The notes beneath the pieces were generated by a model. The model was given only the letters and a program-made list of their open reading frames with translations. It made no database searches and was not told the DNA's origin. A stretch of DNA of 64,000 nucleotides from a virus (lineage: Duplodnaviria > Heunggongvirae > Uroviricota > Caudoviricetes). A program made the translations under genes and the position numbers. This document shows, piece by piece, positions 5,069 to 32,453 of this stretch. The stretch is taken from positions 47,072 to 111,071 of IMG/VR virus record IMGVR_UViG_3300030037_000008; one strand, 5' to 3'. Each line of letters opens with the position of its first letter. Position 1 is the first letter of the stretch.

Positions 5069-5084
5069 ATATTTTCCTTTTGTT

Positions 5085-16416: not shown

Positions 16417-16425
16417 AGTATTTCC

Positions 16426-17791: not shown

Positions 17792-17995
17792 TTAGTAAAT
17801 ACTGTGCATAAATGTTGATAAATAGTTTAATTGAGTTGGAGCTAATGTAATATCAGATCCATCAAAGTTTAAGTATTTACAATTTATATCTTCTACAACT
17901 GTACCTACTAGAACTTCTGACTTATCGTAGCTAATAAAGTATACTTTATCTTGCACGAGTTTGAATAACGGTGGTGCTTCTTTCTTTTTACTCAT
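17792..17995 (-). CDS. hypothetical small protein (67 aa)
   Basis: ORF only; stop overlaps the methyltransferase start (ATGA). Confidence 0.35.
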   Translation of the reverse strand: MSKKKEAPPLFKLVQDKVYFISYDKSEVLVGTVVEDINCKYLNFDGSDITLAPTQLNYLSTFMHSIY

Positions 17996-19197
17996 TTTTT
18001 CATTTCAGTCCATGTTGATGTTACTTTAGAGAGATCGCTGATTGAATCAAGATCTTCATATGTTAACTGGAAGCGCTGCATTTTAGTATGCTGTTGGTAT
18101 ACTAAGCTACAATCTTCTACCATATCTAGCTTGCCTTCTAATGCATCTATAGCTTGGCGTACAATGTATTCAACAGTAGAAGCTGCTACACCTTGAGCAA
18201 TACATTGTACTACAGAAGTTTTACATTCGTCTTGATAGAACTTGAAGTCTTTAGGATAACCCATAAGAGCTTTGAATTCTGCAATGTTTAAATCGCGATC
18301 TTCATGTGGGTGGATGTATTCTACCATAGAAGTAATAGAGCAACAATTCGAATCACCTCTCATCTTATATTTACCATGACCAAAGTACCGTTTACCTTCT
18401 TTAAGACATTGTGCAATACGTTTAACATTCTTATAGTTAGATGCATGCGATTCTTTAATAGATTCAATATCTACATTATTCATAGCAAGTGATTCAAACA
18501 TTGCTTTCTTAGGAAGAACATCTTTATAGAAAGGAACTAAAGCTGGATCAACATGGCCTTTGATGTATTCTCCCCAACCTTCATGACTAGAATCAACATT
18601 AACTAGAATATCATCTACTACGCATTTAGGATTTTTCATTGCATTAACGAGAGGTACTTTGTTATCAAACTCAGATTTCAACCAAGCAACAAACAAAGTT
18701 CTTTGGCGAATCATTGGAACACCGTGAGTATCATTAGTAAGACGAATAGCAGTGAAGTTATATTTTTCTTTCATAACATCAATAGCTTCTTTAAGAACAG
18801 GATAACCTTTTGAAATTAAAGCGGGCGCATTCTCGAGAATAAGTACCTTAGGTTCTAAGAGATTAGCTGTATGCGCTGATTCTACAATGTAGTTATTAAT
18901 TGAAGCATCAGCAGAAGCATGTCTATTAACAGAAGATAATCCAGAACAAGGAGCATTGGAAAACATAATATCAATCTTTCCTTTGTACTTCGCTTCTATA
19001 TCAGTTTCAGTCCATTCAGTTCTTCCAATAACATTTAGATCTTTTTCATTTTTAATCAAATGATATGAATTTTGTGTTAGAATATCATCTGAAATTTCCA
19101 GAATATCATTTACTTGGAGTCCAGCATTTTTCATTCCGAAGTATGCTGACCCGCCAAATATGAATTGACCGATGCCTGTGTATTTTTTCTTACTCAT
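17992..19197 (-). CDS. DNA (cytosine-5)-methyltransferase-like protein
   Basis: Motif I-like FIFGGSAYFGMKNAG. Catalytic motif IV PC, NAPCSGLSS. Motif VI ENV-like LILENAPAL. 401 aa. Confidence 0.65.
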   Translation of the reverse strand: MSKKKYTGIGQFIFGGSAYFGMKNAGLQVNDILEISDDILTQNSYHLIKNEKDLNVIGRTEWTETDIEAKYKGKIDIMFSNAPCSGLSSVNRHASADASINNYIVESAHTANLLEPKVLILENAPALISKGYPVLKEAIDVMKEKYNFTAIRLTNDTHGVPMIRQRTLFVAWLKSEFDNKVPLVNAMKNPKCVVDDILVNVDSSHEGWGEYIKGHVDPALVPFYKDVLPKKAMFESLAMNNVDIESIKESHASNYKNVKRIAQCLKEGKRYFGHGKYKMRGDSNCCSITSMVEYIHPHEDRDLNIAEFKALMGYPKDFKFYQDECKTSVVQCIAQGVAASTVEYIVRQAIDALEGKLDMVEDCSLVYQQHTKMQRFQLTYEDLDSISDLSKVTSTWTEMKK

Positions 19198-19237: not shown

Positions 19238-19732
19238 CTATCCATACATGGATTCTGCTATATATTCTTGTTCTGTTTTATCAAAGAAGTTTTCTGATGG
19301 AGGATTTCTATGCCAAGTACTTATATTACTTATACAATACTTTACTAAGTATTCTGTTCTACATTTATCAGAATTATCTTTACTGTCAGTAAAGATATCA
19401 CTAAAATACAAACTAGGATTATACCATTCTCTGAAATACTCATTACAATATCTAGCTAATGCTTTAGCATACCTCCAAGTATAGTCTACATTCTTAACAT
19501 AAGGCCACCATTTTTCAAAATGTTCGGAACAGAATTCGAATAAGAATTCTACATCAGAAAAACAATATACTTCAGGGTCCCACCAATCATCAAATCTATC
19601 TGAACAGAATTCTGCTAAGTAAAGAGAGTAGTACCACTGAAATGTATCAGGATCAAACCAATCATCAAAGTACTTAGCATTATCTATCCACCAAAGATCT
19701 TCAAATACAATATCTTCGTTAGTTAGTTTCAT
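19238..19732 (-). CDS. WFDP/WWD-repeat family protein
   Basis: DDWFDPDTFQW, FDDWWDPEVY, FEKWWPYV and FREWYNPSLY repeats. Ends SMYG. Confidence 0.6.
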   Translation of the reverse strand: MKLTNEDIVFEDLWWIDNAKYFDDWFDPDTFQWYYSLYLAEFCSDRFDDWWDPEVYCFSDVEFLFEFCSEHFEKWWPYVKNVDYTWRYAKALARYCNEYFREWYNPSLYFSDIFTDSKDNSDKCRTEYLVKYCISNISTWHRNPPSENFFDKTEQEYIAESMYG

Positions 19733-20232
19733 TCGTACATTACATTTGATAGAATTGAAAGTTTAGATTCGCCATGCATATAAATAGAAGCATCATCAAA
19801 CCAAGTGTCAATGTCTTTTATACAATGCTCTACTAAATGAGTAACTTTGGTTGCAGATTCATATATATGAATCGATCTGTCATCCTCGCAGTAATATTTT
19901 ATATGGTACCAAAGATCAAAGTTATCAGCACAGAATATAGCAAGCAATCCGGAATATCTCCAATTGTACTTATCAGCATTCCACCATGTTTTTATATTAT
20001 CGTAGCAGTGTCGTGTTAATGCATCAGATTCATGGTAATCATAAAGATCTTTGTCCCACCAAAATTCAAAATATTGAGAACAATACTCTGCTAGATATCT
20101 ACAGTTACGCCATTCGAATAAGTCAGGATCAAACCAAGTATGAAACAACTTTCCATTCTCTTCGAACCAATCATCGTTATACTCGATTTCCCATCTTTCT
20201 CTAAGTACATTGTATTCTAATTTATTACTCAT
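19729..20232 (-). CDS. WFDP/WWD-repeat family protein
   Basis: HTWFDPDLFEW, FEFWWDKDLY, IKTWWNADKY, FDLWYHIKYY and IDTWFDD. Ends VMYE. Confidence 0.6.
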   Translation of the reverse strand: MSNKLEYNVLRERWEIEYNDDWFEENGKLFHTWFDPDLFEWRNCRYLAEYCSQYFEFWWDKDLYDYHESDALTRHCYDNIKTWWNADKYNWRYSGLLAIFCADNFDLWYHIKYYCEDDRSIHIYESATKVTHLVEHCIKDIDTWFDDASIYMHGESKLSILSNVMYE

Positions 20233-20264
20233 AATGTCTCTGATATATTTTTAAAATAATATCT

Positions 20265-20292
20265 ACTATACTACACTATTAAGAGATGTAAA
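20265..20292 (-). promoter_or_regulatory. promoter TTTACA-N16-TATAGT with conserved GTTTTACATCTC(T/A)TTAAT element
   Basis: Reverse complement of tgtaaa (20287-20292) and actata (20265-20270). The same -35 context recurs at 21747-21774. Confidence 0.45.
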
Positions 20293-20295
20293 ACT

Positions 20296-20820
20296 CTAGT
20301 TGTATAATGATGCAGTTATAAGTTCTTGTTTAGATTGAGTGAATATATCCGAGTCATACCAAGTATCGATAGCATACATAGCACTTAAAGTTAATGTCTT
20401 TGTTTTCTTTATCATGAGTCTTCTAAGATTCATCTTCTCTAGATTACTAACTGAATTAAAACTATACTTATCTAAATCGAAATACAACTTATGATCATAC
20501 CAATCATCAAATCTGTCGGCACAGTATATCATCATCAGTTCATTAGGTTTGATCTCATTCCAATTATGTCGCATAGGATTCCACCAAACATCTAGATAAT
20601 CATGACAATAATAAGGCAGATGATTATAACTAGACATATCAAACAAATCTATATCATACCACTTCTCTATATCTTTAGTGCAATATTTAGCTAGTAGATT
20701 ACATCCCCAGCGATCCCACTTAAAGGTCTCTATATCAAACCACTCATCAAATCTATCGGCATTACATCTGAACCAACTATGACTGTAATATAATTCTCTT
20801 CCTTCATCATCATTATGCAT
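20296..20820 (-). CDS. WFDP/WWD-repeat family protein
   Basis: FDEWFDIETFKW, IEKWYDIDLF, LDVWWNPMRH, FDDWYDHKLY and IDTWYDSD. Ends SLYN. Confidence 0.6.
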   Translation of the reverse strand: MHNDDEGRELYYSHSWFRCNADRFDEWFDIETFKWDRWGCNLLAKYCTKDIEKWYDIDLFDMSSYNHLPYYCHDYLDVWWNPMRHNWNEIKPNELMMIYCADRFDDWYDHKLYFDLDKYSFNSVSNLEKMNLRRLMIKKTKTLTLSAMYAIDTWYDSDIFTQSKQELITASLYN

Positions 20821-21253
20821 ACATAGAATCCACTATGATTTCTTGTTTAGTATGTACTAATCTTTCTTCACAATACCATACATCTATCCTGTCAATACAA
20901 TGGTCTTTTAGATAACACCACATATACCAATCAAACTTATCAGGATTCCACCATACATTAAAGTTCTTAGAATTAAACTGTGCTAAGTATTTAGAATATC
21001 CTTGGTAGTCAAATCTAGTATGATTCCACCAACTTGCAAAGTGTTCAGGACAATACTTAGCCAATTGACTATATGCTAAATCAGAAATAAGTCCAGGTCT
21101 ATACCACTTACCAAAATGATTAGAACAATTAACTATAAGTAGTTCAATACAATCCCAATCAAAAGTCTCTAGATCAAACCACTCATCAAATCTATGTTCG
21201 TTAGCCCCGAACCACATTTTGCTGTAATAAGGTTCGTACTTATCAGTTTCCAT
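20813..21253 (-). CDS. WFDP/WWD-repeat family protein
   Basis: FDEWFDLETFDW, FGKWYRPGL, FASWWNHTRF, FNVWWNPDKF and IDVWYCEE. Ends SMYA. Confidence 0.6.
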   Translation of the reverse strand: METDKYEPYYSKMWFGANEHRFDEWFDLETFDWDCIELLIVNCSNHFGKWYRPGLISDLAYSQLAKYCPEHFASWWNHTRFDYQGYSKYLAQFNSKNFNVWWNPDKFDWYMWCYLKDHCIDRIDVWYCEERLVHTKQEIIVDSMYA

Positions 21254-21710
21254 ACATACTCTCTACTATAAACTCTTGCTTAGTTTTCTCAATGTTTAAG
21301 TAAGGATACCACATATCTATATGACTAATAGTCCTACTTGCAAATAACTTTAAGGCGCTTCTTACGCATATGTCATGTATAATGGTGTGAGGATCGCATC
21401 TGAACCATGTAGGAAAGTTATCTGAACAGTGTCTAAGTAAACCATCTACTTCGAAATATCTAAAGTATTCAGGATCCCACCAAATATCAAAATGATCAGA
21501 ACAGTATCTAGCAAGTCGGTTACAATGTCTCCAATAGAACTTATCAGGATACCACCAAGTTTCAATCTTGCTACTACAGTGACTAGCTAGATAATGTGAT
21601 TCACTCCACATGTACATATCAGGATCGAACCATTCGTCGAATCTATGAGAATTGTTAATGAACCAAAGTTCTGTGTATGTAACATCAGAGGGGTCTAATT
21701 TATTAGGCAT
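21243..21710 (-). CDS. WFDP/WWD-repeat family protein
   Basis: FDEWFDPDMYMW, IETWWYPDKF, FDIWWDPEYF, FPTWF and IDMWYPY. Ends SMYGN. Confidence 0.6.
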   Translation of the reverse strand: MPNKLDPSDVTYTELWFINNSHRFDEWFDPDMYMWSESHYLASHCSSKIETWWYPDKFYWRHCNRLARYCSDHFDIWWDPEYFRYFEVDGLLRHCSDNFPTWFRCDPHTIIHDICVRSALKLFASRTISHIDMWYPYLNIEKTKQEFIVESMYGN

Positions 21711-21774: not shown

Positions 21775-21779
21775 CAAAC

Positions 21780-21811
21780 AAATGGACTAAATTTAATTAT
21801 TTAGTCCATTT
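21780..21811 (-). terminator. rho-independent terminator candidate downstream of a-gt
   Basis: Perfect 13-bp inverted repeat AAATGGACTAAAT / ATTTAGTCCATTT with a 6-nt loop. On the minus-strand RNA it is followed by GUUUGUUUAC. Confidence 0.45.
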
Positions 21812-21831
21812 GATTACCAGGAAGTTATATC

Positions 21832-23043
21832 TTAGATAGTCAAGTCTTTAAGAATGATATCATAAACTAATGGAGCATCTGCATGAGATTTCCAGAAAGC
21901 GAATGATTCTTCTCTCATCTTATCTCTTGCAATTGGATCGTTAGCAAGTTTTTCCATGAGTTGTGCAGTCTCTTCTAAGTTATTCTCATCTACCCAAATT
22001 GTACCATTGTTTGGACAATCGATAAGTGGAATATCTTTAGTAAGGTGCATAGTATGCTGACCAAAATGCTTGTGGAATACTGGAATAGTACCGGATGCAA
22101 TTACATCTGCATGGCAATATTCAAAGCTCTTACCATATTTCTGAGGTTTGAGATTATAGAAGTCACAACCAAATGCTGTCTTGGAAAGACGATGCATACA
22201 TTCTACATATTTGTAATCACCAAAGACATAAGCATTTTCTCCAACTACCATGTCATCTGGACCAATGCCACATTTCTTGTAGTTAAGGCATTCTTTAATA
22301 TCAGGGCGTTGACCATTTGCACGTTGACCATCATTGAAGAAGAATCGCAATCCACCAATAGATAGTTCCATACCTTCTAAAGAAGTTTTGAATCCCTGTG
22401 CCTTGAGGTGTTCACGGTGAAGGTCATAGACTTGTTCAGGACCTTTCCACATTGCAGATCGACCAATGAATTTGAAAGTCTTATCATCTTGTTCTTCAAT
22501 GGGTTTCCAATAGTTAGCACGATGTTCATCAAAGTTAAAGCCTACTGGAAAGACTTTCATTGGAGTAGTGACACCTTCACGCGCCATCTTCTTAGCCAAG
22601 TCACCTTCAGTAGAGTGAGCAAAGATAGTATGCATCTTACTACATATTTCCATCATACGAGCATTTCGAACAATTGAATGAACTGAATGGTCTACACAAA
22701 TCATAATCTGTTTAGTAGTAAGACCATCAATCATCGCCATGAAGTTATCAACTGATTCATCCGGAGTTTTCTTGGGTGGCTGAGAGAAATGAATGACTAG
22801 ATCATAGTCACTATTAAGACGAGCAGTAAGAGCTTCACATTCATCTTTGTTCTTCATTCCCCATTCTTCTATTTCGATAGGTTGAGCATTACGTCTGCCC
22901 CATTTTTTATCGTTAGTAGCAAAGATGTCACAATTGACACCAATAGTTCTACAGTACTTTTGCATTTCAATACAGTTCTTTGTATTGCCTACACCTGGAA
23001 TACCGCGCGCCATGATGAGTGCTACTGATTTATAATTTGACAT
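21832..23043 (-). CDS. a-gt: DNA alpha-glucosyltransferase homologue (T4 a-gt / AGT-like, GT-B fold)
   Basis: Block-wise identity to T4 AGT. LIMARGIPGVGNTK matches IFMARGLEGCGVTK. FIGRSAMWKGPEQVYDLHREHLK matches WIGRTTTWKGFYQMFDFHEKFLK. SFEYCHADVIASGTIPVF matches SLEYTHLELGACGTIPVF. NGTIWVDENNLEET matches SGIIWFDENDMEST. The RBS AACAAAAAGGAAAAAT-ATG is shared with frd and uvsX. Confidence 0.8.
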   Translation of the reverse strand: MSNYKSVALIMARGIPGVGNTKNCIEMQKYCRTIGVNCDIFATNDKKWGRRNAQPIEIEEWGMKNKDECEALTARLNSDYDLVIHFSQPPKKTPDESVDNFMAMIDGLTTKQIMICVDHSVHSIVRNARMMEICSKMHTIFAHSTEGDLAKKMAREGVTTPMKVFPVGFNFDEHRANYWKPIEEQDDKTFKFIGRSAMWKGPEQVYDLHREHLKAQGFKTSLEGMELSIGGLRFFFNDGQRANGQRPDIKECLNYKKCGIGPDDMVVGENAYVFGDYKYVECMHRLSKTAFGCDFYNLKPQKYGKSFEYCHADVIASGTIPVFHKHFGQHTMHLTKDIPLIDCPNNGTIWVDENNLEETAQLMEKLANDPIARDKMREESFAFWKSHADAPLVYDIILKDLTI

Positions 23044-23090
23044 ATTTTTCCTTTTTGTTTTGTTTTTGTTTAATAATAAGAAACAAGCTT

Positions 23091-24539
23091 TTATAGATTT
23101 AACAATCTTTTAACTTCTTTTTCCCAATACAATTTATCTTCTCTTATCTTAAATAAAATTCGCAATTCTAAAATAAGTAAGTATTGTTCTTGAGGGTTGC
23201 TGTTGTAGTATTCAATTTTGTCTTTGATATCTTGACCATTTTCTACTCTTAACTTATCCTGAATCTCTCTAGGAATCTGTAAGTAATCAGGATCATACTC
23301 TGAATCAATGAATGGAAGTACTCCTGCCATTGCATAAAATGCTGGTCTGAAGTTAAGAGAATCATAGCTACTAGTACATCGTAGTAAGAGAGAATATTTA
23401 TATTCAGATACTACCTTAAATTGTTCAGTTGGTAAGAAGGATCCTTTATAAAGAGGGTTAGCTTCGATCTCATCTTTAAGTTCTTTGAGGTGAGCATACT
23501 TCTCATCAGCCATGTACTTAGCCATCATAGTAGTCTTACGCTTAGCTTCTTTCTGGTTACATATGATACCATTAAGCGTTGTAGGAATGTACATAGAGTT
23601 CTTTTCAGGATCCAATCCTTCTAATCCTTTAAGGAATTTCTCGTACATCTTGTGACGTTCTCCTTTGCCGTAGAAGATAGAACCATAGAAGCAAAAGTCT
23701 TTAGGACATTCAATGTCTTCTTTGACTTGATACTCCGATCCAAACAAACATTGCATTTCACCCATTGGCATGTGAGTAAAATCACGAGTACCGCGATGGT
23801 CATCTGCAAAGTAAAATTTAGTACTCTTATAGCCAAGATGATCTGCGTAAGTCCAGTGATAGACAGGATCGATAATGTAGTTATAAGAAAGGCAACCTGG
23901 ATTGTTATTGATGATACATTCTAATACTCCAGCATGAGCAGCATTTTCATTTTGAGAGAATGCAAGTGGAGACATACCAGTAAGTGGTACAGCATTAACA
24001 CGATCATTAGTTTGATGTATAGCTTTAATAACATTTAGATCTGATCCAACATAATCAAAGTATTCATTTTGTAGATCTTTAAGAACTGGATTAGCATCTT
24101 TCTCAGGTTTGAGTACATGTTCCATTAGAGGAAGCATGAAACTAGGAAGTCCAATTGATACTGCTTTGATTTTGATATCACCAAGAACTTTACTGATAGA
24201 GTCTACTACAACAGTTTGGTTATGAACTCTAAACCAATCACATTCAGGGGTAGGAACAAAGTCTTTACTTCTGATAAGTTTCTCTGTAATGCCAGGGTTA
24301 TTTGAAATGTTAACAATGTTTCTGTATCCACGATCTTGGAAGTATTTGATATCATCCTTGTTTAACATACCAACAATGATTATGTTGTAATCTTTAGCTA
24401 CAGTATCCATGATGAACTTGTTAACAAATCCATGAGTGTATTCATACTTAACTGCTTTGCTTGTTAAAAATACAACATTCTCCTTTGAGCCGTCAAGCTC
24501 CATGTATTCGATGACTTCTGCATATTCATATTTTTTCAT
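23091..24539 (-). CDS. DNA beta-glucosyltransferase-like protein (T4 b-gt / BGT homologue) with a ~100-aa N-terminal extension
   Basis: FCFYGSIFYGKGERHKMYEKFL matches T4 BGT DVIYGGSFRSGQRESKMVEFL. NFRPAFYAMAGVLPFIDSEYD matches LRVWETMASDAVMLIDEEFD. 482 aa versus 351 in T4. Confidence 0.6.
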   Translation of the reverse strand: MKKYEYAEVIEYMELDGSKENVVFLTSKAVKYEYTHGFVNKFIMDTVAKDYNIIIVGMLNKDDIKYFQDRGYRNIVNISNNPGITEKLIRSKDFVPTPECDWFRVHNQTVVVDSISKVLGDIKIKAVSIGLPSFMLPLMEHVLKPEKDANPVLKDLQNEYFDYVGSDLNVIKAIHQTNDRVNAVPLTGMSPLAFSQNENAAHAGVLECIINNNPGCLSYNYIIDPVYHWTYADHLGYKSTKFYFADDHRGTRDFTHMPMGEMQCLFGSEYQVKEDIECPKDFCFYGSIFYGKGERHKMYEKFLKGLEGLDPEKNSMYIPTTLNGIICNQKEAKRKTTMMAKYMADEKYAHLKELKDEIEANPLYKGSFLPTEQFKVVSEYKYSLLLRCTSSYDSLNFRPAFYAMAGVLPFIDSEYDPDYLQIPREIQDKLRVENGQDIKDKIEYYNSNPQEQYLLILELRILFKIREDKLYWEKEVKRLLNL

Positions 24540-24817
24540 TTATTCTTATACTCCTCGTATAATTTGTGGTACGTACCATTTTGTATTAAAATTGTATGCT
24601 CAGCTTGTCCTTTAAAAGTAAGTCTATGCTCAACGTATTGTAAGAGTTCACATGTTCTAAGAGCTAGATCTAAGCTTGTATCATGTAGTTCTGGTCTAAG
24701 AAACTTTGACTGTTCTACAATATCTTTGCACATGTCTGTTTGTGTTACTACTTCGCTAGTGAAATTCATCAGGTGTCTCCAACATGGCCATTTCAATATT
24801 GTACATGAAGTTTCCAT
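24536..24817 (-). CDS. hypothetical small protein (93 aa)
   Basis: ORF whose stop overlaps the b-gt-like start. Sits between the glycosyltransferases and the sugar-activation genes. Confidence 0.4.
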   Translation of the reverse strand: METSCTILKWPCWRHLMNFTSEVVTQTDMCKDIVEQSKFLRPELHDTSLDLALRTCELLQYVEHRLTFKGQAEHTILIQNGTYHKLYEEYKNK

Positions 24818-25238
24818 ATTCGTCTAACTCTAAAAGTTCATTTCCAATTGTATCTGCTGAGAATACTCGAGTTCCTTTATATGTCATCATAGGTTCAATG
24901 ATATCTGACATTGATCCAACCGTGTCAGTAAGTCCTACGATGATATATTTAGGAGCTACGGTTATGTTATTCTTGAAATACTCTTTAAGTTCTCTAAGTT
25001 TATCACCAAAGAATCCAGTAGTATTGACTATAACAGTGTCAGGATAAATTCCATGAAGTCTTAACAAATTTTCTGGCTTTTCATACAGATTATCAATAAG
25101 TTTAAAAGTAGCAGCAGGATATAACTTTCTTACTACTGCAATTGTTTCATCAGTGAATTTGTCTACACTTATGTTAGATGACTCGCAATCTCCGCCACAG
25201 TCTTCACCGTCAAGTACTACTACTTTTAAAATATTCAT
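24756..25238 (-). CDS. hypothetical protein, possibly a small sugar-phosphate isomerase (weak RpiB/LacAB-like resemblance)
   Basis: 160 aa, about RpiB size. IVGLTDTVGSMSDI weakly resembles the RpiB ICGTGVGISIAANK loop. Call is driven mainly by context. Confidence 0.25.
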   Translation of the reverse strand: MNILKVVVLDGEDCGGDCESSNISVDKFTDETIAVVRKLYPAATFKLIDNLYEKPENLLRLHGIYPDTVIVNTTGFFGDKLRELKEYFKNNITVAPKYIIVGLTDTVGSMSDIIEPMMTYKGTRVFSADTIGNELLELDEYGNFMYNIEMAMLETPDEFH

Positions 25239-25280
25239 TTGATTTCCTTTATTAGCTTATGCTATACAATACCACACTAA

Positions 25281-27119
25281 CTAATTATTGACACCTGTGT
25301 TATTAACTTTAATTGAATTAAATATCTCTACTGCCTTTATATAAAACATCATACAACGATTTATATTATCTTTATGTAAAGGAATCATAGATAAAAATAA
25401 TGTTGCAGTAATGAACTTGATTTCTCTAAGATCAAAACTACATTCTACTAACTTCTTTTCAAATGCATCTATAATAGATTGATTCTGATTGGATGTAAGT
25501 ATTTTATATTGAAAGTCTTTAGGATCATTGTTATAAATCATGTATACATCATTTGAAATGTAGTCATAGTTACCTACAATAGAATGATAAAGTTTGGCTA
25601 CATCATATCGTACATCTCCATAGATAGTCGGAACAGATGAATCATAATGTCCCTTAGGATCAATAACTTTCAAAGTATCTGAGTTAGAATCAAACAACAT
25701 GTTACCGAAGAATAAGTCGCCATGAACTATCTGATAGTACTTGTTATAATTAGATCCTTTGAATATTTCATCATACTGTTCTGCTATATAATCATAGTTA
25801 CTAACTCTTCCATCAAGTTCCTTGCCATTTACAGTTATTGCATTATTTAAATAAAGACTAAGGAATTCTGTATCATTACATATACCAGTACTTGAATCCA
25901 TAGTATCTGCAATACGATTATTTAGTTTAGTTAGTATAGCATCCTTAAACATTTTGTTTGCAGGTATTAATGGGACACTATTAATTGATTCTGACTTAAA
26001 TCTTCTTAACATAGTAAATGTAGTTTCAAACAATCTATTCCAGTACTTAACGTCATTATTGTCATACATAAACTTACTAGCACATGTTACATGATTGATG
26101 TATTCTAACTCATATTGTTTATGCTCAGAGAAGAATGAACTGTCGGCATTATAATCAATAAATTGCGGAGTAAAGATTCTTAGTCTATTAGGAAGATTAA
26201 GATACCATGCAATTTCCTTTTCAATTTTGTCTGCATTCTCTTTGGATGATTTGACAATTGTATTATGATCTGTTACAGATATCTCATTAAAGTACCGAGT
26301 CATGTTCTTCTTACATTTAATGTAAGTATCAATCTCACCAACATCTTCCCAATTCTTAGCACGTACTGTTCTAATTTTAAATCCTATCGCAATGTACTTC
26401 TCCATGATAGTAGAGATTTGAAATTCGCCGGCAATAGTCTTACCCGATTCTTTAGCCATCTTAATAGCTTTACGAAACATCATTGGGTTAGTAAAATTGT
26501 ATGCTCCAATAAGAGCTCCATTGTCAGTAGGAGTAACATCTTCCATAGAAGGTTTATCTAAGAATTCTGTAACGTGAGTAATATGTTTAGGACCTTCCAT
26601 CTCACCATTAGCACCAAATCTTACATGGCCAGTAAACATCATGTTAGTATCATCACCTTTGAGAATACACCAACGTGATTGATCTCCGTGTTCTACTTCT
26701 CTATAATAGATAGCATCATCAAAATCTTCAGGACTTTCATTAAGTAAAGTATCGCCTAAAAGAATGAACATGTTTCTAATGTTTGCAAACTTATCAATAA
26801 CTTTATCTACTGCTAGTTCAACTGCACCGCCTAATCCGCTCAGAGTGTCTTGAGTAACATAAGTAATCGAGTCAAATTGATCCTTATAGATAAGATCTAC
26901 GTACTCTTTAATGCTGTCTTCGTTATATCCAGTGACGATGCAGATATCTTTGTAATCATGCTTTTTAAAGTAATCTAACTGATGTCCAATGATCGGCTTA
27001 CCTTCAATTGGCACTAGACACTTAGCAAAGTTATCAGTCAGACTCAGCATTCTACTACCTCTACCAGCTGCAGGTATAATTGCTACTTTAACTCCGTTAT
27101 TAGAAATTAAGTTTATCAT
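25281..27119 (-). CDS. bifunctional sugar-1-phosphate nucleotidyltransferase (N-terminal) / APH-choline-kinase-fold sugar anomeric kinase (C-terminal)
   Basis: N-terminus KVAIIPAAGRGSRMLSLTDNFAKCLVPIEGKPII is the G-x-G-(T/S)-R-(L/M) signature of RmlA/GalU/GlmU-type NDP-sugar pyrophosphorylases. C-terminal region has the Brenner kinase motif IVHGDLFFGNMLF and a downstream IDPKG (D-x-G). 612 aa. Confidence 0.7.
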   Translation of the reverse strand: MINLISNNGVKVAIIPAAGRGSRMLSLTDNFAKCLVPIEGKPIIGHQLDYFKKHDYKDICIVTGYNEDSIKEYVDLIYKDQFDSITYVTQDTLSGLGGAVELAVDKVIDKFANIRNMFILLGDTLLNESPEDFDDAIYYREVEHGDQSRWCILKGDDTNMMFTGHVRFGANGEMEGPKHITHVTEFLDKPSMEDVTPTDNGALIGAYNFTNPMMFRKAIKMAKESGKTIAGEFQISTIMEKYIAIGFKIRTVRAKNWEDVGEIDTYIKCKKNMTRYFNEISVTDHNTIVKSSKENADKIEKEIAWYLNLPNRLRIFTPQFIDYNADSSFFSEHKQYELEYINHVTCASKFMYDNNDVKYWNRLFETTFTMLRRFKSESINSVPLIPANKMFKDAILTKLNNRIADTMDSSTGICNDTEFLSLYLNNAITVNGKELDGRVSNYDYIAEQYDEIFKGSNYNKYYQIVHGDLFFGNMLFDSNSDTLKVIDPKGHYDSSVPTIYGDVRYDVAKLYHSIVGNYDYISNDVYMIYNNDPKDFQYKILTSNQNQSIIDAFEKKLVECSFDLREIKFITATLFLSMIPLHKDNINRCMMFYIKAVEIFNSIKVNNTGVNN

Positions 27120-27528
27120 TCTCGCATATCTCCTTTAATTCTTCGTAAGTACTTGTAACAAATTCACGTGGGCGTATAGCTTTGTCATCCACATAGAATC
27201 CTTCCTTTGCCCAGGGCTTTCCTATCATTAACTGATCGTATTGTACATTGTACTTAGTTAGCCATGCTTCTAGAACAGGTACTGTATGTTCTGTTATCTT
27301 TTCTATGTCTCCATCAAAAGATCTCATGTTTCTTGCAGTAAACAGAACTATTTGAAATCCTGAATCTTTATAAAGTTTTATCTTAGTTATCATATCATGA
27401 TTAGGAACTGCGTTAACATAGTCTCCATTGTATGTTGTACAAATCGTATCATCAATATCCATAACAATTGTCTTTTTGTTTATTGGCATATTATTATCTT
27501 CTTTAAGTTTATTACTTTTAAGAAACAC
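27100..27528 (-). CDS. HAD-superfamily phosphatase
   Basis: Motif I DxDxT in IVMDIDDTIC, motif II LFTARN, and C-terminal GKPWAKEGFYVDDKA (K and DD motifs). 142 aa. Overlaps the upstream gene by 20 nt. Confidence 0.65.
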   Translation of the reverse strand: MFLKSNKLKEDNNMPINKKTIVMDIDDTICTTYNGDYVNAVPNHDMITKIKLYKDSGFQIVLFTARNMRSFDGDIEKITEHTVPVLEAWLTKYNVQYDQLMIGKPWAKEGFYVDDKAIRPREFVTSTYEELKEICENDKLNF

Positions 27529-27549: not shown

Positions 27550-28155
27550 TTAACTGTTATCATCTCCCCATTTAGTATTTTTCTTAAATACTTTTACACA
27601 TATAACGTTAAACCAAAATACTATAAATATTGATACAGTAATTACTGCAGGGCTTTTGGTAATTGTAAGTATGTTAATACAGTGGAGTATTGACATGATC
27701 ATTAGATATGGCATGAATGCTGAGTATATATAATGTCTGGCGCCCTTTTCGAATAAAATAGGAAGAAATGCTACTCCGCCTAATGCAAGACTAGTTAACA
27801 TAAACGCGCCTACCATCCACATAGCCGGACCTGACTTGTCAGGTCCAATGGCAATAGAAACTACCGCGATTACTACTGTTAAGAATCCTGCCCAACATGC
27901 ACCTAAAACTCTATGTAGCCATTCTTTATTAAACGCTCTAATATCTTCCGCTGATGGTTTATAGTCATCTGAATCAGACTGTGATAATCTAGATTCTACT
28001 CTAGCTAATCTTGCTTCAGACTTAGCAGCTTCAGATTCTCTTGTTCTACATTCGCTTGAACAGTATCCGCCATAGTAACTTTCACTAGCATCGTCACAAT
28101 GTCTATTAGCGCATTTAGAATAACCTCCATCTTGGTATAATCCATGTTGTCGCAT
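27550..28155 (-). CDS. integral membrane protein (Cys-rich N-terminus + 4 predicted TM helices)
   Basis: N-terminal CANRHCDD..GGYCSSEC, then four hydrophobic helices (AGFLTVVIAVVSIAIG, MWMVGAFMLTSLALGGVAFLPILF, IYSAFMPYLMIMSIL, ITVSIFIVFWFNVICV). Confidence 0.5.
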   Translation of the reverse strand: MRQHGLYQDGGYSKCANRHCDDASESYYGGYCSSECRTRESEAAKSEARLARVESRLSQSDSDDYKPSAEDIRAFNKEWLHRVLGACWAGFLTVVIAVVSIAIGPDKSGPAMWMVGAFMLTSLALGGVAFLPILFEKGARHYIYSAFMPYLMIMSILHCINILTITKSPAVITVSIFIVFWFNVICVKVFKKNTKWGDDNS

Positions 28156-29655: not shown

Positions 29656-30588
29656 TTATTTTGATTCTCCAATGATAGCATTAATTTTATCTCTAAGATC
29701 AGCGTTATGCTGAGTAACAGCGATACCATATTGTTGTGGTAAGTAAACATCTTTTAGTACTTTGTAATCATCTTTAACATAATCATTCAAAACACATTCA
29801 TCATACATTACAGAATCTACTTCCCCTTTGTACAGAGCTACCATACACTTATCAATATTGTCATATAGTTTAGGTTCATTACCAGCATGGGTCATTAAGT
29901 TATGTGAAGAAGTATTTCTAATAGTAGCAACCTTTTGTTGTTTAAGTTCTCCCATTGAATATGATTGTACTGAAGCTTTATTCCATGATGCAGCAGAGAT
30001 ACCAATGATAGCTCCGAAGTACATAATACCACTCATCATGATGAATGCTGCAAATATTCTACCTGATATAGTTTTTGGAGCTACATCACCTAGACCTGAT
30101 GTTGATGATAAATTAAGACTTAGCCATATACCATGTCCGGCTCCAGCCAAAAATCCTTCATCGTTATTATCTCCATTGAGATCTTTTTCTAATACAGAGA
30201 ATATCATTCCTGATATGATCAAGAACACTACGAAGAGTGCTGCTGGAATAATCATATTACCAAAGAAGTTACAACACTTATTCCACATGCCAGTAGTATC
30301 TTTCTTAAGGAGTTTAACTGGAGAGTTGTTATAAGGAATTGTAAAATCAATCACTGATTCTCGTTGAGCATTAATAGTGATGTTACCAATAGCTATATCG
30401 GAAACACCTGTCTGAACATTGTTTAACGCTGTTGCAAGATCTACGTTCTGCATCTTAACATCGAACTGTTTGGATAATTCAACAATAAGATTCTTATCTT
30501 TCTGTGAGGCGTCATGTGTCATAGAAACGTTTAAAGTCTCTGCGTTTAGTGAAACCATTAACGATAGTAATAGGGCGAGGTATTTCAT
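29656..30588 (-). CDS. ionotropic-glutamate-receptor-like (GluR0-type) ligand-gated K+ channel: periplasmic-binding domain split by a 2-TM pore with a TxGxGD selectivity filter
   Basis: Signal peptide MKYLALLLSLMVSLNA. S1 lobe with the family-3 solute-binding-protein motif DIAIGNITINAQRESVIDFTIPY. M1 helix IIPAALFVVFLIISGMIFSVL. Pore loop WLSLNLSSTSGLGDVAP, where TSGLGD matches T(V/I)G(Y/F/L)GD. M2 helix ISGRIFAAFIMMSGIMYFGAIIGI. S2 lobe KVATIRNTSSHNLM...YDNIDKCMVALYKGEVDSVMYDECVL, which resembles GlnH/HisJ. Confidence 0.65.
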   Translation of the reverse strand: MKYLALLLSLMVSLNAETLNVSMTHDASQKDKNLIVELSKQFDVKMQNVDLATALNNVQTGVSDIAIGNITINAQRESVIDFTIPYNNSPVKLLKKDTTGMWNKCCNFFGNMIIPAALFVVFLIISGMIFSVLEKDLNGDNNDEGFLAGAGHGIWLSLNLSSTSGLGDVAPKTISGRIFAAFIMMSGIMYFGAIIGISAASWNKASVQSYSMGELKQQKVATIRNTSSHNLMTHAGNEPKLYDNIDKCMVALYKGEVDSVMYDECVLNDYVKDDYKVLKDVYLPQQYGIAVTQHNADLRDKINAIIGESK

Positions 30589-31538: not shown

Positions 31539-32453
31539 TTACTTTTTAGTTTCTACAATTTCTTTGGTAGCTTGTAACTGTACTGCTTGGTTCATTGTGC
31601 TTTGTCCCATTGCTTCGTATGGAAGTACAAAGATTGTATTACTTTCACCTTTAGCTAATGCAATAGTTGTTTCTTCCATTACTTCTAATTGGCGCCATTT
31701 GACGAATGCTGGAGTTAATGAGTCAGCAAGTATTTGATTTTCTCTTGCTTGGCTCGTAGCTTTCAAGACTCTAACTTTATTCAATTCAGTAATTACGGTT
31801 ACTTGGCGAGCAGCATCGATAATATCAGCCTTTGCTTTAGCAGCTTTCAATTCATCTTGAAGTTGAGCGTGTTTGATCTCTTCTCGAAGTAATTTAATTG
31901 AAGCAGGGTGATCAAGATTACTAAGCATTACGGCAGAGATTTTGACTGGCATATTAAGTTGTTTGATTCTTTCTAGAACAATTGTACCGATCTTAGCTTC
32001 AATATTTTCTCGTTCATTACGAATATCATTGGTGTTATATTTACCAACTACATTCCTAGCAGTATTCCTTACAATATCTCGTATCACCATTGTATAGAAA
32101 TCTGCAATGCTCATTTCATTTTTATTATCAACCTTTTTTGTAGGTACTTTATTGATAAGGAATCCTACAGATGTAGTATCAACTTGGAATGATAAAACTG
32201 TCTTAACATCTACATCCATGTTAATTTCATCAGTACAAAGAATTTGAAGTTTCTCTGTATATGAACTGAGTTTTCCATCAACATAGAAGGCAACATCACG
32301 GCCAACTACTGTGTAGTAACCTTTATCATGGATAGTAGTTGCGCCATCAGGTTTCATGACAATAACAGTCTTGCCGGGTGGAACGATTTCACCACAACCC
32401 GCACAAACTAACATGATAGCAGCTAATAGTAATGTCTTAATAATTTTATTCAT
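31539..32453 (-). CDS. SPFH/band-7 (stomatin/prohibitin/HflKC-like) domain lipoprotein
   Basis: Signal peptide with a lipobox-like LVCAGC. Band-7 core LQILCTDEINMDVDVKTVLSFQVD, which matches T-x-D-x-V-x-V-D-x-V-V-x-Y-x-V. C-terminal coiled-coil region with AAKAKADIIDAARQ. Confidence 0.55.
   Translation of the reverse strand: MNKIIKTLLLAAIMLVCAGCGEIVPPGKTVIVMKPDGATTIHDKGYYTVVGRDVAFYVDGKLSSYTEKLQILCTDEINMDVDVKTVLSFQVDTTSVGFLINKVPTKKVDNKNEMSIADFYTMVIRDIVRNTARNVVGKYNTNDIRNERENIEAKIGTIVLERIKQLNMPVKISAVMLSNLDHPASIKLLREEIKHAQLQDELKAAKAKADIIDAARQVTVITELNKVRVLKATSQARENQILADSLTPAFVKWRQLEVMEETTIALAKGESNTIFVLPYEAMGQSTMNQAVQLQATKEIVETKK

What the first reader, a model, noticed from the sequence alone, without database searches (positions are those of the whole stretch)
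21832..27528. Phage-encoded sugar-activation pathway adjacent to tandem DNA glucosyltransferase homologues: candidate non-glucose hypermodification of hydroxymethyl-cytosine DNA
21832..23043 is an unmistakable T4 alpha-glucosyltransferase homologue (multiple conserved blocks). 23091..24539 carries the T4 beta-glucosyltransferase signature blocks plus a 100-aa N-terminal extension. T4 itself uses host UDP-glucose and encodes no sugar-activation enzymes. Here the transferases are followed on the same strand by three further genes. A fused NDP-sugar pyrophosphorylase (G-x-G-S-R-M) / APH-fold anomeric kinase (HGDLFFGN). A HAD phosphatase (DIDDT). A small possible RpiB-like isomerase. Together these could convert a sugar 5-phosphate into free sugar, then sugar-1-P, then NDP-sugar, supplying a phage-specific donor, for example a pentose such as arabinose. 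The implication is that the DNA carries a glycosyl-hmC other than glucosyl-hmC, an anti-restriction hypermodification.
Basis: partly seen in the sequence, partly recalled or inferred. Interest (0 to 1): 0.85.

Follow-up and report, generated by a model that had tools for sequence, protein, structure and literature searches.

The report
Phage DNA sugar-coating operon with own donor supply
A large uncultured phage carries one operon with two DNA sugar-transferases related to those of phage T4 and a two-enzyme unit that makes its own activated sugar, so it probably coats its modified cytosines with a sugar the host does not supply; this is a new combination of parts that are each already known.

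Summary
On the minus strand, 27528 to 21779 is one tightly packed operon. In order it holds a HAD phosphatase, a fused sugar-1-phosphate nucleotidyltransferase/kinase, two ORFans, a 482-aa GT-B transferase, a T4 alpha-glucosyltransferase homologue and a strong terminator.

The HAD plus NTase/kinase pair is a remote homologue of the characterised AfhF/AfhE pair, which makes UDP-arabinose in RB69-type phages. That idea is therefore already known.

What is new is the pairing. Here the module sits with T4-type transferases, and no arabinose-5-phosphate isomerase is present in the window or in 80 related viral loci. The thymidylate-synthase homologues next to related modules carry the T4 gp42 signature for 5hmC, not the RB69 signature for 5-hydroxycytosine.

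A C5-methyltransferase-like gene at 17992..19197 is a conserved partner of this transferase family.

The sugar is unknown and could still be glucose. No hydroxymethylase lies in the window, and the rest of the 255-kb genome could not be reached.

Verdict: a real feature, a new variant of a known kind, of moderate to good interest.

The parts
27100..27528 (-). HAD-superfamily phosphatase, AfhF-like (EcbF/BcbF 'capsule biosynthesis phosphatase' family). The likely true start is the ATG at 27489 (129 aa). Its 3' end overlaps the next gene by 20 nt.
   Evidence: TIGR01689 E 1.2e-43 at 148 bits, just under the curated cut-off of 162. PDB 1xpj E 7.6e-35 and 9iqw E 2e-11. It is 40% identical to the HAD of Enterococcus phage 9183, with the DxDxT, TAR, GKP and DDK motifs aligned, and 35% identical to the RB69 and WG01 AfhF-type HADs. 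A HAD sits next to the NTase/kinase in 72 of 80 related loci. Start site read from the sequence.
25281..27119 (-). Bifunctional enzyme, AfhE-like. The N-terminal domain is a sugar-1-phosphate nucleotidyltransferase (residues ~13-274). The C-terminal domain is an APH/choline-kinase-fold kinase (~300-612).
   Evidence: PF00483 E 5.7e-23; weak APH hit at residues 462-512. NCBIfam hits to RmlA-, GalU- and GlmU-type NTases. The family profile hits RmlA and GalU structures at 1.8e-20 across the whole domain, but LicC only over the first ~60 residues. Full-length homologues: Enterococcus phage 9183 (30% identity, E 1e-66), L009 (27%), DLP_6 (24%) and WG01 AfhE-type (20%, E 2.6e-10). Invariant G-x-G-x-R, HGD...N and IDPxG motifs.
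24756..25238 (-). ORFan of 160 aa inside the operon. Function unknown. It is not an RpiB or SIS isomerase by any test run here.
   Evidence: Strong RBS (AAAGGAAA) 6 nt before the ATG. No family or structure hit. It matches only itself among 5.8e9 proteins. It is absent from all 160 related loci.
24536..24817 (-). Small ORF of unknown function: 93 aa as listed, more likely 77 aa from the ATG at 24769. It overlaps the stop of the 160-aa gene and the start of the transferase (ATGA).
   Evidence: GGAG lies 7 nt before the ATG at 24769, and the gene overlaps its neighbours. No hits. Absent from related loci.
23091..24539 (-). GT-B glycosyltransferase of a phage family remotely related to T4 beta-glucosyltransferase. 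It is the probable cognate transferase for the phage-made NDP-sugar.
21832..23043 (-). T4 alpha-glucosyltransferase (AGT) homologue; last gene of the operon.
   Evidence: PF11440 E 3.1e-32; phrog_2888 E 1.2e-74. 28% identical to T4 a-gt over the full length, E 2e-46. 52% identical to the closest IMG/VR relative, L092.
21779..21812 (-). Intrinsic-terminator-like hairpin (14-bp stem followed by a T-run), 20 nt after the AGT stop codon. It marks the end of the operon.
   Evidence: only 2 terminator-like sites were found in the 12 kb scanned, and this is the strong one.
17992..19197 (-). C5-cytosine-methyltransferase-like gene. It is a conserved partner of AGT and BGT-like transferases in related clusters. 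Here it is separated from AGT by five W/D-rich paralogue genes (19238..21710).
   Evidence: PF00145 E 3.2e-20. The catalytic PC, ENA and RxR motifs are kept; motif I is non-canonical. Homologues lie directly downstream of AGT in 47 of 80 AGT loci and near the NTase/kinase in 32 of 80 loci. L020 has the same order as the window: HAD, NTK, BGT-like GT, AGT, C5MT.

Best explanation
This is a DNA-cytosine glycosylation operon that carries its own sugar-nucleotide supply.

Working model by homology (inferred steps are marked):
1. The kinase domain of the 612-aa enzyme phosphorylates the anomeric C1 of a sugar omega-phosphate taken from host metabolism, giving a 1,omega-bisphosphate (inferred from AfhE).
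2. The HAD phosphatase removes the distal phosphate, giving a sugar-1-phosphate (inferred from AfhF).
3. The N-terminal nucleotidyltransferase domain condenses this with an NTP to give an NDP-sugar. The domain identity is shown; the substrate is inferred.
4. The BGT-like 482-aa GT-B enzyme transfers this sugar onto 5-hydroxymethylcytosine in phage DNA. In relatives this enzyme type travels with the NTase/kinase.
5. The AGT homologue adds a second glycosyl group. It may use host UDP-glucose, because its closest relatives lack any sugar module. The second group goes either on other hmC residues or on the first sugar (inferred).

The 5hmC itself is predicted to come from a gp42-type dCMP hydroxymethylase encoded outside the window. 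This follows from the fact that the relatives of this cluster sit next to such genes.

The biological role is protection of phage DNA from restriction and other DNA-targeting defences. This is established for T4 and RB69-type modifications and inferred here.
For: - Operon structure: the genes overlap or are closely spaced, and a terminator follows AGT.
- Domain and family assignments.
- Homology to the characterised AfhE/AfhF pair: with the biochemistry reported in PMC13326640.
- BGT-like fold. AGT homology.
- Comparative genomics of 80 IMG/VR loci with NTase/kinase relatives (51 clusters at 90% identity): a HAD is adjacent in 72, some glycosyltransferase in 69, and a BGT-like GT in 39.
- L020 reproduces the window's gene order, preceded by a gp42-like gene.
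- Thymidylate-synthase homologues in these loci, and in 44 of 47 AGT loci that have one, carry the T4 gp42 residue pattern. In E. coli ThyA numbering this is L143D, H147T, Q165M, C168N, D169 kept and N177D. The RB69-type D169N pattern is not seen.
- None of the 80 closest AGT relatives has an NTase/kinase or a HAD. This argues that the BGT-like enzyme, not AGT, is the partner of the sugar module.
Against: - No pyrimidine-C5-modifying enzyme other than the C5-methyltransferase-like gene is present in the 64-kb window. The rest of the 255,591-bp contig could not be retrieved.
- The sugar and the nucleotide are unknown. Identity to the biochemically characterised AfhE lineage is only ~20%, and RB69's split AfhE halves do not hit the window at E<=1e-3.
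- Two ORFans of unknown role sit in the middle of the operon.
- The division of labour between the two transferases rests on co-occurrence only.
- The locus counts are not phylogenetically independent, and labels rest on tblastn at E<1e-4 on contigs that are often truncated.
Confidence: 0.7

Rival explanations
1. The machinery is the same but the sugar is glucose. The module would be a host-independent route to UDP-glucose (glucose-6-P to glucose-1,6-bisphosphate to glucose-1-P to UDP-glucose). The DNA would then carry ordinary alpha/beta-glucosyl-hmC as in T4, and the phage would simply be immune to host galU or pgm loss.
For: - Both transferases are of the T4 glucosyltransferase types.
- The NTase domain is closest to the glucose-1-P thymidylyl- and uridylyltransferases RmlA and GalU.
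- No dedicated sugar isomerase, epimerase or mutase lies in the operon, and no A5P isomerase is found in any of 80 related loci.
- The module also occurs in Enterococcus phages, whose hosts are not expected to make arabinose-5-P (the host point is my own knowledge).
Against: - The only biochemically characterised members of this kinase/NTase plus HAD architecture make UDP-arabinofuranose.
- The HAD belongs to the TIGR01689 family of 'capsule biosynthesis phosphatases' rather than to hexose-phosphate phosphatases.
- 80 of the 80 closest AGT relatives manage without such a module, which suggests UDP-glucose is normally not limiting.
- Related clusters add UDP-galactopyranose mutase, epimerases or a second NTase/kinase, which points to donor diversification.
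Confidence: 0.25
2. The acceptor is made after replication. The C5-methyltransferase-like enzyme writes 5mC at specific motifs, and a TET/JBP dioxygenase encoded elsewhere oxidises it to 5hmC, which is then glycosylated. This is the MT-5mYOX-GT pathway of Burke 2021 and Pyle 2023. Modification would then be partial and sequence-specific.
For: - A C5-MTase homologue with the catalytic Cys, Glu and Arg motifs lies 2.6 kb downstream of AGT.
- No gp42-like gene lies in the window.
- Relative L006 has the order HAD, BGT-like GT, second GT, C5-MTase, then two TET-associated glycosyltransferases.
- NTase/kinase plus HAD modules do occur beside TET in 30 of 80 loci.
Against: - In the 80 NTase/kinase loci, TET never co-occurs with this C5-MTase-like subfamily or with gp42-like genes (0 of 30). 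In contrast, 28 of the 32 C5-MTase-like loci also carry a gp42-signature hydroxymethylase.
- The same holds around AGT: 47 loci carry the C5MT-like gene and 47 a gp42-like gene, and none has TET.
- No Tet_JBP domain is found in the window.
Confidence: 0.12
3. It is an RB69/DLP3-type system: arabinofuranose placed directly on 5-hydroxycytosine made by a D169N thymidylate-synthase homologue.
For: The module architecture is that of AfhE/AfhF, and the HAD is 35% identical to the RB69 and WG01 HADs.
Against: - The transferases are AGT- and BGT-type, not the GT4-like arabinosyltransferases of RB69 and DLP3.
- Thymidylate-synthase homologues linked to the closest relatives of the NTase/kinase and of AGT all keep D169 and match gp42.
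- No A5P isomerase is found in the window or in 160 related loci, although the control detects RB69's at E 7e-30.
Confidence: 0.06
4. The operon does not act on DNA. It would make an NDP-sugar or CDP-choline-type donor for decorating host surface polymers or virion proteins (a LicA/LicC-like or capsule-like function).
For: The best single-sequence PDB hit of the NTase domain is LicC (E 7e-9). The C-terminal domain has a choline-kinase/APH fold. The HAD family is named after capsule loci.
Against: - The LicC match covers only the first ~90 residues, whereas profile hits to sugar-1-P NTases cover the whole domain at E 1e-20.
- One transferase is a clear homologue of T4 a-gt, a DNA glucosyltransferase, and the other has T4 b-gt as its closest solved structure.
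- Relatives are embedded beside dCMP hydroxymethylase, TET, dCMP deaminase, MazG and DNA-replication genes.
Confidence: 0.03

Closest known systems
Afh / arabinosyl-5-hydroxycytosine pathway of Escherichia phages RB69 and HY126 and Acinetobacter phage DLP3 (AfhE kinase/pyrophosphorylase, AfhF HAD phosphatase, arabinose-5-P isomerase, GT4-like arabinosyltransferases, D169N ThyA homologue); PMC13326640 and PMC6024577
   Same: The architecture is the same: an N-terminal sugar-1-P nucleotidyltransferase fused to a C-terminal APH-fold kinase, with an adjacent small HAD phosphatase of the 1xpj type. Both lie next to DNA glycosyltransferases in a phage replication or nucleotide-metabolism region.
   Different: - Only ~20% identity to the RB69-group enzyme.
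- No arabinose-5-P isomerase is present.
- The transferases are T4 a-gt and b-gt types.
- The linked thymidylate-synthase homologues of relatives have the gp42 (5hmC) signature, not the 5hoC signature.
- A C5-MTase-like gene is part of the conserved set.
T4 hmC glucosylation (gp42 dCMP hydroxymethylase, alpha- and beta-glucosyltransferases using host UDP-glucose)
   Same: The window has a full-length a-gt homologue (28% identity) and a structurally BGT-like second transferase arranged in tandem. Relatives carry gp42-signature hydroxymethylases.
   Different: - T4 encodes no sugar-activation enzymes (established knowledge).
- The second transferase is 130 aa longer and falls outside the Pfam BGT family.
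- A C5-MTase-like partner is present here and absent from T4.
ADP-heptose pathway: GmhA isomerase, bifunctional HldE kinase/adenylyltransferase, GmhB HAD phosphatase (established biochemistry)
   Same: The reaction logic is the same: sugar omega-phosphate to 1,omega-bisphosphate to sugar-1-phosphate to NDP-sugar. Both use a bifunctional kinase/NTase and a separate HAD phosphatase. The PHROG name 'phosphoheptose isomerase' for the HAD, and the GmhB-like fold hit reported for DLP3 gp81, reflect this resemblance.
   Different: The kinase fold differs (APH-like here, ribokinase-like in HldE), as does the NTase fold family. The acceptor here is DNA, not LPS.
Phage MT-5mYOX(TET)-GT hypermodification gene clusters (Burke et al. 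2021, PMC8256090; Pyle et al. 2023, doi 10.1101/2023.12.21.572611)
   Same: These are phage clusters that combine a C5-MTase-family gene with DNA glycosyltransferases and, in some cases, 'APH phosphotransferase' and epimerase genes. NTase/kinase plus HAD modules also occur next to TET and TAGT in 30 of 80 loci.
   Different: No TET lies in the window. The C5-MTase-like subfamily found here co-occurs with gp42-type hydroxymethylases and never with TET in the loci examined.

Membership tests
T4 DNA alpha-glucosyltransferase family (Pfam PF11440) | Full-length match to the family profile above the curated threshold | tested here: met
   112.5 bits against a cut-off of 25, covering profile positions 55-353 of 355; phrog_2888 E 1.2e-74
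T4 DNA alpha-glucosyltransferase family (Pfam PF11440) | End-to-end alignment with T4 a-gt, including the C-terminal nucleotide-sugar-binding blocks (IGR..WKG, EY.H....GTIPVF) | tested here: met
   28% identity over 410 columns, E 2e-46; the blocks are invariant in the 5-sequence alignment
T4 DNA alpha-glucosyltransferase family (Pfam PF11440) | Transfers glucose from UDP-glucose to 5hmC in duplex DNA | not testable with these tools
   Needs an enzyme assay
T4 DNA beta-glucosyltransferase family (Pfam PF09198) | Match to the family sequence profile | tested here: not met
   The Pfam scan at E<=0.1 returned no BGT family. None of 69 family members hit it at E<=0.01. Pairwise BLASTP E 0.21.
T4 DNA beta-glucosyltransferase family (Pfam PF09198) | Remote homology of the nucleotide-sugar-binding C-terminal domain | tested here: met
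   hhalign of the family profile against T4 BGT: probability 92.2%, E 5.9e-7, BGT residues 155-329. The GxR of BGT 'SGQRE' aligns with the nearly invariant R295.
T4 DNA beta-glucosyltransferase family (Pfam PF09198) | The closest solved structure is BGT (two-Rossmann GT-B fold) | tested here: met
AfhE-type bifunctional sugar-phosphate kinase / NDP-sugar pyrophosphorylase | N-terminal NTP_transferase domain fused to a C-terminal APH-fold kinase with the HxDxxxxN and DxG motifs | tested here: met
AfhE-type bifunctional sugar-phosphate kinase / NDP-sugar pyrophosphorylase | Detectable full-length sequence homology to the RB69/HY126-group enzymes | tested here: inconclusive
   WG01 ORF46: 20% identity over residues 10-593, E 2.6e-10. 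The two halves of RB69's split gene do not hit the window at E<=1e-3. No AfhE structure was found in the PDB copy by phmmer or by a family profile.
AfhE-type bifunctional sugar-phosphate kinase / NDP-sugar pyrophosphorylase | Adjacent AfhF-type HAD phosphatase | tested here: met
   The two genes overlap in the window, and a HAD is adjacent in 72 of 80 related loci
AfhE-type bifunctional sugar-phosphate kinase / NDP-sugar pyrophosphorylase | Companion arabinose-5-phosphate isomerase (SIS/KdsD-like), as in RB69 and DLP3 | tested here: not met
   No SIS hit in the window. Neither KdsD (in the 80 NTase/kinase loci) nor RB69 API (in the window and all 160 related loci) finds a match. The control detects RB69 API at E 7e-30. 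WG01 also shows none within the 15 kb fetched.
AfhE-type bifunctional sugar-phosphate kinase / NDP-sugar pyrophosphorylase | Arabinose-5-P kinase and UDP-arabinose pyrophosphorylase activity | not testable with these tools
   Needs biochemistry
AfhF / TIGR01689 (EcbF-BcbF) HAD phosphatase | Family profile match and HAD catalytic motifs (DxDxT, S/T, K, DD) | tested here: inconclusive
   E 1.2e-43, but 148.1 bits is below the curated cut-off of 162. The motifs are present and aligned with homologues. PDB 1xpj E 7.6e-35, the same structure reported as top hit for DLP3 gp81 and RB69 gp51.
RpiB/LacAB or SIS sugar-phosphate isomerase (for the 160-aa ORF) | Any profile, sequence or structure-database similarity | tested here: not met
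   No Pfam, PHROG, NCBIfam or PDB hit. BLASTP against E. coli RpiB gives E 11.
C5-cytosine DNA methyltransferase (Pfam PF00145) | Profile match plus the catalytic motifs IV (PC), VI (ENV) and VIII (RxR) | tested here: met
   73.3 bits against a cut-off of 22; the motifs read APCSGL, ENAP and RQRTL
C5-cytosine DNA methyltransferase (Pfam PF00145) | Canonical AdoMet-binding motif I (FxGxGG) and motif X (GNxV) | tested here: inconclusive
   The Pfam alignment starts only at profile position 30.
Phage MT-TET(5mYOX)-GT post-replicative pathway | A Tet_JBP dioxygenase in the cluster | tested here: not met
   No Tet_JBP among 66 ORFs of >=110 aa. tblastn with a phage TET from L027 finds nothing in the window.

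The most novel reading that the evidence does not exclude
The phage DNA carries a glycosyl-5hmC that has not been chemically described. One possibility is a pentofuranosyl-hmC; another is a mixed disaccharide built by a BGT-like and an AGT-like enzyme from a phage-made donor. In addition, the C5-methyltransferase-like protein may not be an ordinary methyltransferase. It is conserved immediately downstream of AGT homologues, together with gp42-type hydroxymethylases, in dozens of environmental phage contigs. It could be an enzyme that acts on hmC or glycosyl-hmC DNA, for example by C6 covalent activation of a 5-substituted cytosine.
Probability: 0.1. Interest if true: 0.9.

Novelty: new variant of a known kind. 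Interest (0 to 1): 0.6.

Why it matters
Phage DNA glycosylation decides which restriction, CRISPR and type IV systems can attack a phage, so it bears on phage therapy and on enzymes used to map 5hmC.

So far, phage-made sugar donors for DNA have been shown only for arabinose on 5-hydroxycytosine.

This locus and its metagenomic relatives indicate that the same kinase/NTase plus HAD "donor cassette" is a mobile module. It is plugged into at least three acceptor systems: gp42-type 5hmC, TET-type, and RB69-type 5hoC.

Here the cassette is combined with T4-type alpha- and beta-like transferases. If the sugar is not glucose, this would be a new hmC hypermodification and a new set of DNA-glycosylating enzymes with altered donor specificity.

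The tight and unexplained conservation of a C5-methyltransferase-like gene beside AGT in hmC-type clusters is a separate, directly testable question.

Tried and rejected
- Near-identical DNA in 50,697 phage records: none. tblastn of the 482-aa protein in phages: none.
- The word-indexed protein search found only 4 members of the 482-aa family, and a profile built from them found nothing more. The exhaustive HMMER search was needed and found 111 representatives.
- AlphaFold2 with the 4-sequence alignment gave pLDDT 46.6 and was discarded.
- The profile of the small alignment against PDB sequences gave nothing.
- The 160-aa ORF had no Pfam, PHROG, NCBIfam or PDB hit, no similarity to RpiB, and no homologue in 5.8e9 proteins.
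- Attempts to reach the rest of the 255,591-bp source contig all failed. Exact-protein look-ups were not on record. Exact 48-50-mers were absent from viral, metagenome and genome contig collections.
- Regex searches for DHFR motifs failed.
- The sigma-70 promoter scan was uninformative: 59 sites found against 63 expected.
- Literature searches gave nothing on DNA modification in Enterococcus phage 9183-type phages, nor on gp42, AGT and C5-MTase clusters.
- The LicA/LicC choline reading was considered and rejected (see the rival explanations).

Full report
**What is in the sequence**

All genes of the finding lie on the minus strand. In order of transcription they are:
- a HAD phosphatase (27528/27489..27100)
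- a 612-aa fusion protein (27119..25281), which overlaps the HAD gene by 20 nt
- a 160-aa ORF (25238..24756) with a strong ribosome-binding site
- a small ORF of 77-93 aa (24817/24769..24536), which overlaps both neighbours
- a 482-aa protein (24539..23091)
- a 403-aa protein (23043..21832)
- a 14-bp-stem hairpin with a T-run (21812..21779), 20 nt after the last stop codon. It is the only strong terminator-like site in the 12 kb scanned.

This is therefore one operon.

**The source of the window**

The window comes from a 255,591-bp contig known to NCBI, JGI, Logan and ENA. It has no near relative among 50,697 deposited phages. Its topoisomerase II large subunit is about 44% identical to those of jumbo phages such as RsoM2USA and pf16. 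The window also encodes UvsX, UvsY, a primase, an NAD-dependent ligase and DHFR.

**The individual genes**

*The 403-aa protein* is a clear T4 alpha-glucosyltransferase homologue. Pfam PF11440 gives E 3e-32, and it is 28% identical to T4 a-gt end to end with E 2e-46.

*The 482-aa protein* gave no Pfam BGT hit, and pairwise BLASTP against T4 b-gt gave only E 0.21. An exhaustive HMMER search showed that it belongs to a family of at least 111 representative proteins of about 460-480 aa. The evidence that it is BGT-like is:
- A 69-member profile aligns to the C-terminal, UDP-binding domain of T4 BGT with 92% probability.
- Half of the members hit the generic GT-B domain PF13524.
- An AlphaFold2 model built on that alignment is confident (pLDDT 92.4, pTM 0.92).
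- The best viral predicted structure is named "DNA beta-glucosyltransferase".

By the sequence-profile criterion the protein is not a member of the Pfam BGT family.

*The 612-aa protein* has a sugar-1-phosphate nucleotidyltransferase domain (PF00483, E 6e-23). Profile hits to RmlA and GalU structures reach E 2e-20 across the whole domain. It also has a C-terminal APH-fold kinase domain with invariant HGDxxxxN and IDPxG motifs.

*The HAD* carries the DxDxT motif. It matches TIGR01689 (E 1e-43) and PDB 1xpj (E 8e-35).

*The 160-aa ORF* is an ORFan with no detectable relative anywhere and no similarity to RpiB. The isomerase idea is not supported.

**What the sugar module is**

The literature held in the paper library shows that this architecture is known. 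In phages HY126, RB69 and DLP3:
1. A bifunctional AfhE (N-terminal NTase, C-terminal kinase) phosphorylates arabinose-5-P to the 1,5-bisphosphate.
2. The HAD phosphatase AfhF removes the 5-phosphate.
3. AfhE then makes UDP-arabinofuranose.
4. GT-B enzymes place the sugar on 5-hydroxycytosine, which is made by a thymidylate-synthase homologue with a D169N signature (PMC13326640).

The structural neighbours reported there for the RB69 and DLP3 proteins (1xpj for the HAD, LicC 1jyk/1jyl for the NTase) are the same entries I find for the window proteins.

The window's fusion protein aligns over its full length with several relatives:

| Relative | Identity | E-value |
|---|---|---|
| AfhE-type protein of the RB69-related phage WG01 | 20% | 2.6e-10 |
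| Stenotrophomonas phage DLP_6 | 24% | — |
| Metagenomic contig L009 | 27% | — |
| Enterococcus phage 9183 | 30% | 1e-66 |

In each case a homologous HAD is adjacent.

**Comparative genomics of the NTase/kinase**

A scan of IMG/VR with the NTase/kinase alignment found 241 relatives. I analysed the best 80 loci, which form 51 clusters at 90% identity. A HAD is adjacent in 72 and a glycosyltransferase in 69. The loci fall into two mutually exclusive cluster types.

- **Type A** contains:
  - a thymidylate-synthase homologue (35 loci)
  - the HAD and the NTase/kinase
  - a BGT-like GT of the 482-aa superfamily (39 loci)
  - a C5-cytosine-methyltransferase-like gene (32 loci, 28 of them with the thymidylate-synthase homologue)
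- **Type B** contains a Tet_JBP dioxygenase (30 loci; Pfam E 4e-14), the NTase/kinase, the HAD and a TET-associated glycosyltransferase. TET never co-occurs with the type A genes.

The window is type A. Contig L020 has exactly its order (HAD, NTase/kinase, BGT-like GT, AGT, C5-MTase-like), preceded by a thymidylate-synthase homologue.

**Which base is the acceptor**

I aligned all thymidylate-synthase homologues from these loci with E. coli ThyA, T4 gp42 and the RB69-type enzyme of WG01. Nearly all of those in the gene cluster itself match T4 gp42 at every diagnostic position: L143D, H147T, Q165M, C168N, D169 retained and N177D, giving the motif "MRSND...D". WG01 instead shows the published 5-hydroxycytosine signature "MRSQN". 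Relatives of this cluster therefore make 5-hydroxymethyl-dCMP, not 5-hydroxy-dCMP.

**No arabinose-5-P isomerase**

No arabinose-5-phosphate isomerase is present in the window, in the 80 NTase/kinase loci or in 80 AGT loci. As a positive control, the KdsD query finds the RB69 isomerase at E 7e-30.

**The AGT side**

The 80 closest AGT relatives in IMG/VR reach up to 52% identity. They show a different conserved set: a gp42-signature hydroxymethylase (47 loci), a dCMP deaminase (45), AGT, and the same C5-MTase-like gene directly downstream (47), often overlapping AGT. None of them has an NTase/kinase or a HAD.

Three conclusions follow:
- AGT plus C5-MTase-like plus gp42-like is a widespread 5hmC cluster that normally needs no donor cassette.
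- The NTase/kinase plus HAD cassette travels with BGT-like or TAGT transferases.
- The window, like L020, L026 and L079, combines the two.

In the window the ancestral AGT/C5-MTase adjacency has been split by five copies of a W/D-rich paralogue family. Other copies of that family lie elsewhere in the window, and none occurs in any related locus.

**Most likely mechanism (confidence about 0.7)**

1. A host sugar omega-phosphate is phosphorylated at C1 by the kinase domain.
2. The HAD removes the distal phosphate.
3. The NTase domain makes an NDP-sugar.
4. The BGT-like enzyme puts that sugar on 5hmC in DNA.
5. The AGT homologue adds a second glycosyl group, plausibly from host UDP-glucose.
6. 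The 5hmC itself comes from a gp42-type enzyme encoded outside the window.

*Shown:* gene identities, operon structure, homology and co-occurrence. *Inferred:* substrates, the division of labour between the two transferases, and the presence of a hydroxymethylase elsewhere in the genome.

**What remains open**

- *The sugar.* Arabinose is the only precedent. Against it, the missing isomerase and the presence of the module in Enterococcus phages argue for a universally available sugar phosphate such as ribose-5-P or a hexose-6-P. Glucose itself, in the form of a host-independent UDP-glucose supply, remains a serious rival (about 0.25).
- *A post-replicative C5-MTase plus TET route.* This is disfavoured by the strict separation of TET from this C5-MTase subfamily (about 0.12).
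- *The rest of the genome.* I could not inspect the other 190 kb. Within the window there is none, and no dCTPase or TET either.

**Novelty and score**

The principle of a phage-encoded donor synthesis for DNA glycosylation is published. So is the survey-level observation that GT clusters carry "APH phosphotransferase", epimerase and methyltransferase genes.

I found no description of three things in the searched library:
- the coupling of an AfhE/AfhF-type cassette to gp42-type 5hmC chemistry with T4-type alpha and beta-like transferases
- the 482-aa BGT-like family
- the conserved gp42 / AGT / C5-MTase-like cluster

I therefore rate this a new variant of a known kind, with interest 0.6.

The most novel reading not excluded has probability about 0.1. 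It is that the DNA carries an undescribed glycosyl-hmC and that the conserved C5-MTase-like protein performs non-canonical chemistry on 5-substituted cytosines. Its catalytic Cys, Glu and Arg motifs are intact, but its AdoMet motif I is atypical.

**Caveats**

- Locus labels come from tblastn or blastp at E<1e-4 on contigs that are often truncated.
- The 80-locus sets are not phylogenetically independent.
KdsD and ThyA were validated by the hits they produced.

Noticed in passing
window 17992..19197 (-); loci L092-L171 and L017-L091: A distinct C5-cytosine-methyltransferase-like subfamily (motifs PLIGG / PCxGL / ENAP / QxRxRTF / QNVP) is conserved directly downstream of AGT homologues. It occurs together with gp42-signature dCMP hydroxymethylases: 47 of 80 AGT loci, and 28 of the 32 NTase/kinase loci that carry it. 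It never occurs with TET. Its role in phages whose cytosines should already be 5-substituted is unexplained.
   Followed up: partly
window 19238..21710 (-), 1..~600 (+), ~16200..17000 (-), 41186..41731 (+): A multigene family of ~150-175-aa proteins rich in repeated W..D/WW.D motifs. Five copies are in tandem between AGT and the C5-MTase-like gene, and at least four more lie elsewhere in the window. There is no Pfam or NCBIfam hit for the copy tested and no homologue in any related locus.
   Followed up: partly
L027-L066 (IMG/VR contigs), e.g. L027:7590-8972: The same NTase/kinase plus HAD cassette is found in 30 of 80 loci next to a 461-aa Tet_JBP dioxygenase and a TET-associated glycosyltransferase. 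MazG and DUF6433 genes are often present, and there is no C5-MTase. This suggests a phage-made sugar donor for TET-dependent (possibly 5hmU) glycosylation.
   Followed up: partly
L003 and L007 (Logan/ENA contigs); L009/L010: Relatives of the 482-aa transferase sit beside a gp42-like gene and a UDP-galactopyranose mutase (L003, L007). Others sit beside a HAD-kinase fusion, a small cytidylyltransferase-like protein and, in L010, an epimerase. These are alternative donor-making cassettes. L026 carries two different NTase/kinase genes.
   Followed up: partly
L002 / L018 (Enterococcus phage 9183, MT939241.1 28.0-34.5 kb): A cultured Enterococcus phage carries this gene run: thymidylate kinase-like, gp42-signature 'thymidylate synthase', dUTPase, HAD, NTase/kinase, BGT-like GT, RNase H, 'nucleotide sugar synthetase-like'. 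This implies an undescribed glycosyl-hmC DNA in a phage of a Gram-positive host. I found no paper on it.
   Followed up: partly
window 14106..15050 (-): A homologue of the Gabija anti-defence protein Gad1 (PF25705, E 7.6e-28).
   Followed up: no
window 29656..30588 (-): A 310-aa protein with a signal peptide, a periplasmic solute-binding-like part, transmembrane segments and a GLGD pore-like motif. It is probably the source of the SBP_bac_3, Lig_chan-Glu_bd and Ion_trans_2 hits in the survey. That would make it a phage-encoded glutamate-receptor-like ligand-gated channel. The assignment of the hits to this ORF is my inference.
   Followed up: no
window 39564..41048 (-); 4598..5101 (-); 31539..32453 (-): Auxiliary metabolic or host-takeover genes: nicotinamide phosphoribosyltransferase (NAMPT), dihydrofolate reductase and an SPFH/Band-7 protein. 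The ORFs flanking DHFR (3783..4601 and 5085..5855) have no Pfam hit, and there is no adjacent thymidylate synthase.
   Followed up: no
window 27550..28155 (-): A 201-aa ORF immediately upstream of the HAD gene. It has a Cys-rich N-terminus and a hydrophobic, apparently membrane-spanning C-terminal half. It has no family hit and no homologue in related loci. Whether it belongs to the operon is unknown.
   Followed up: no
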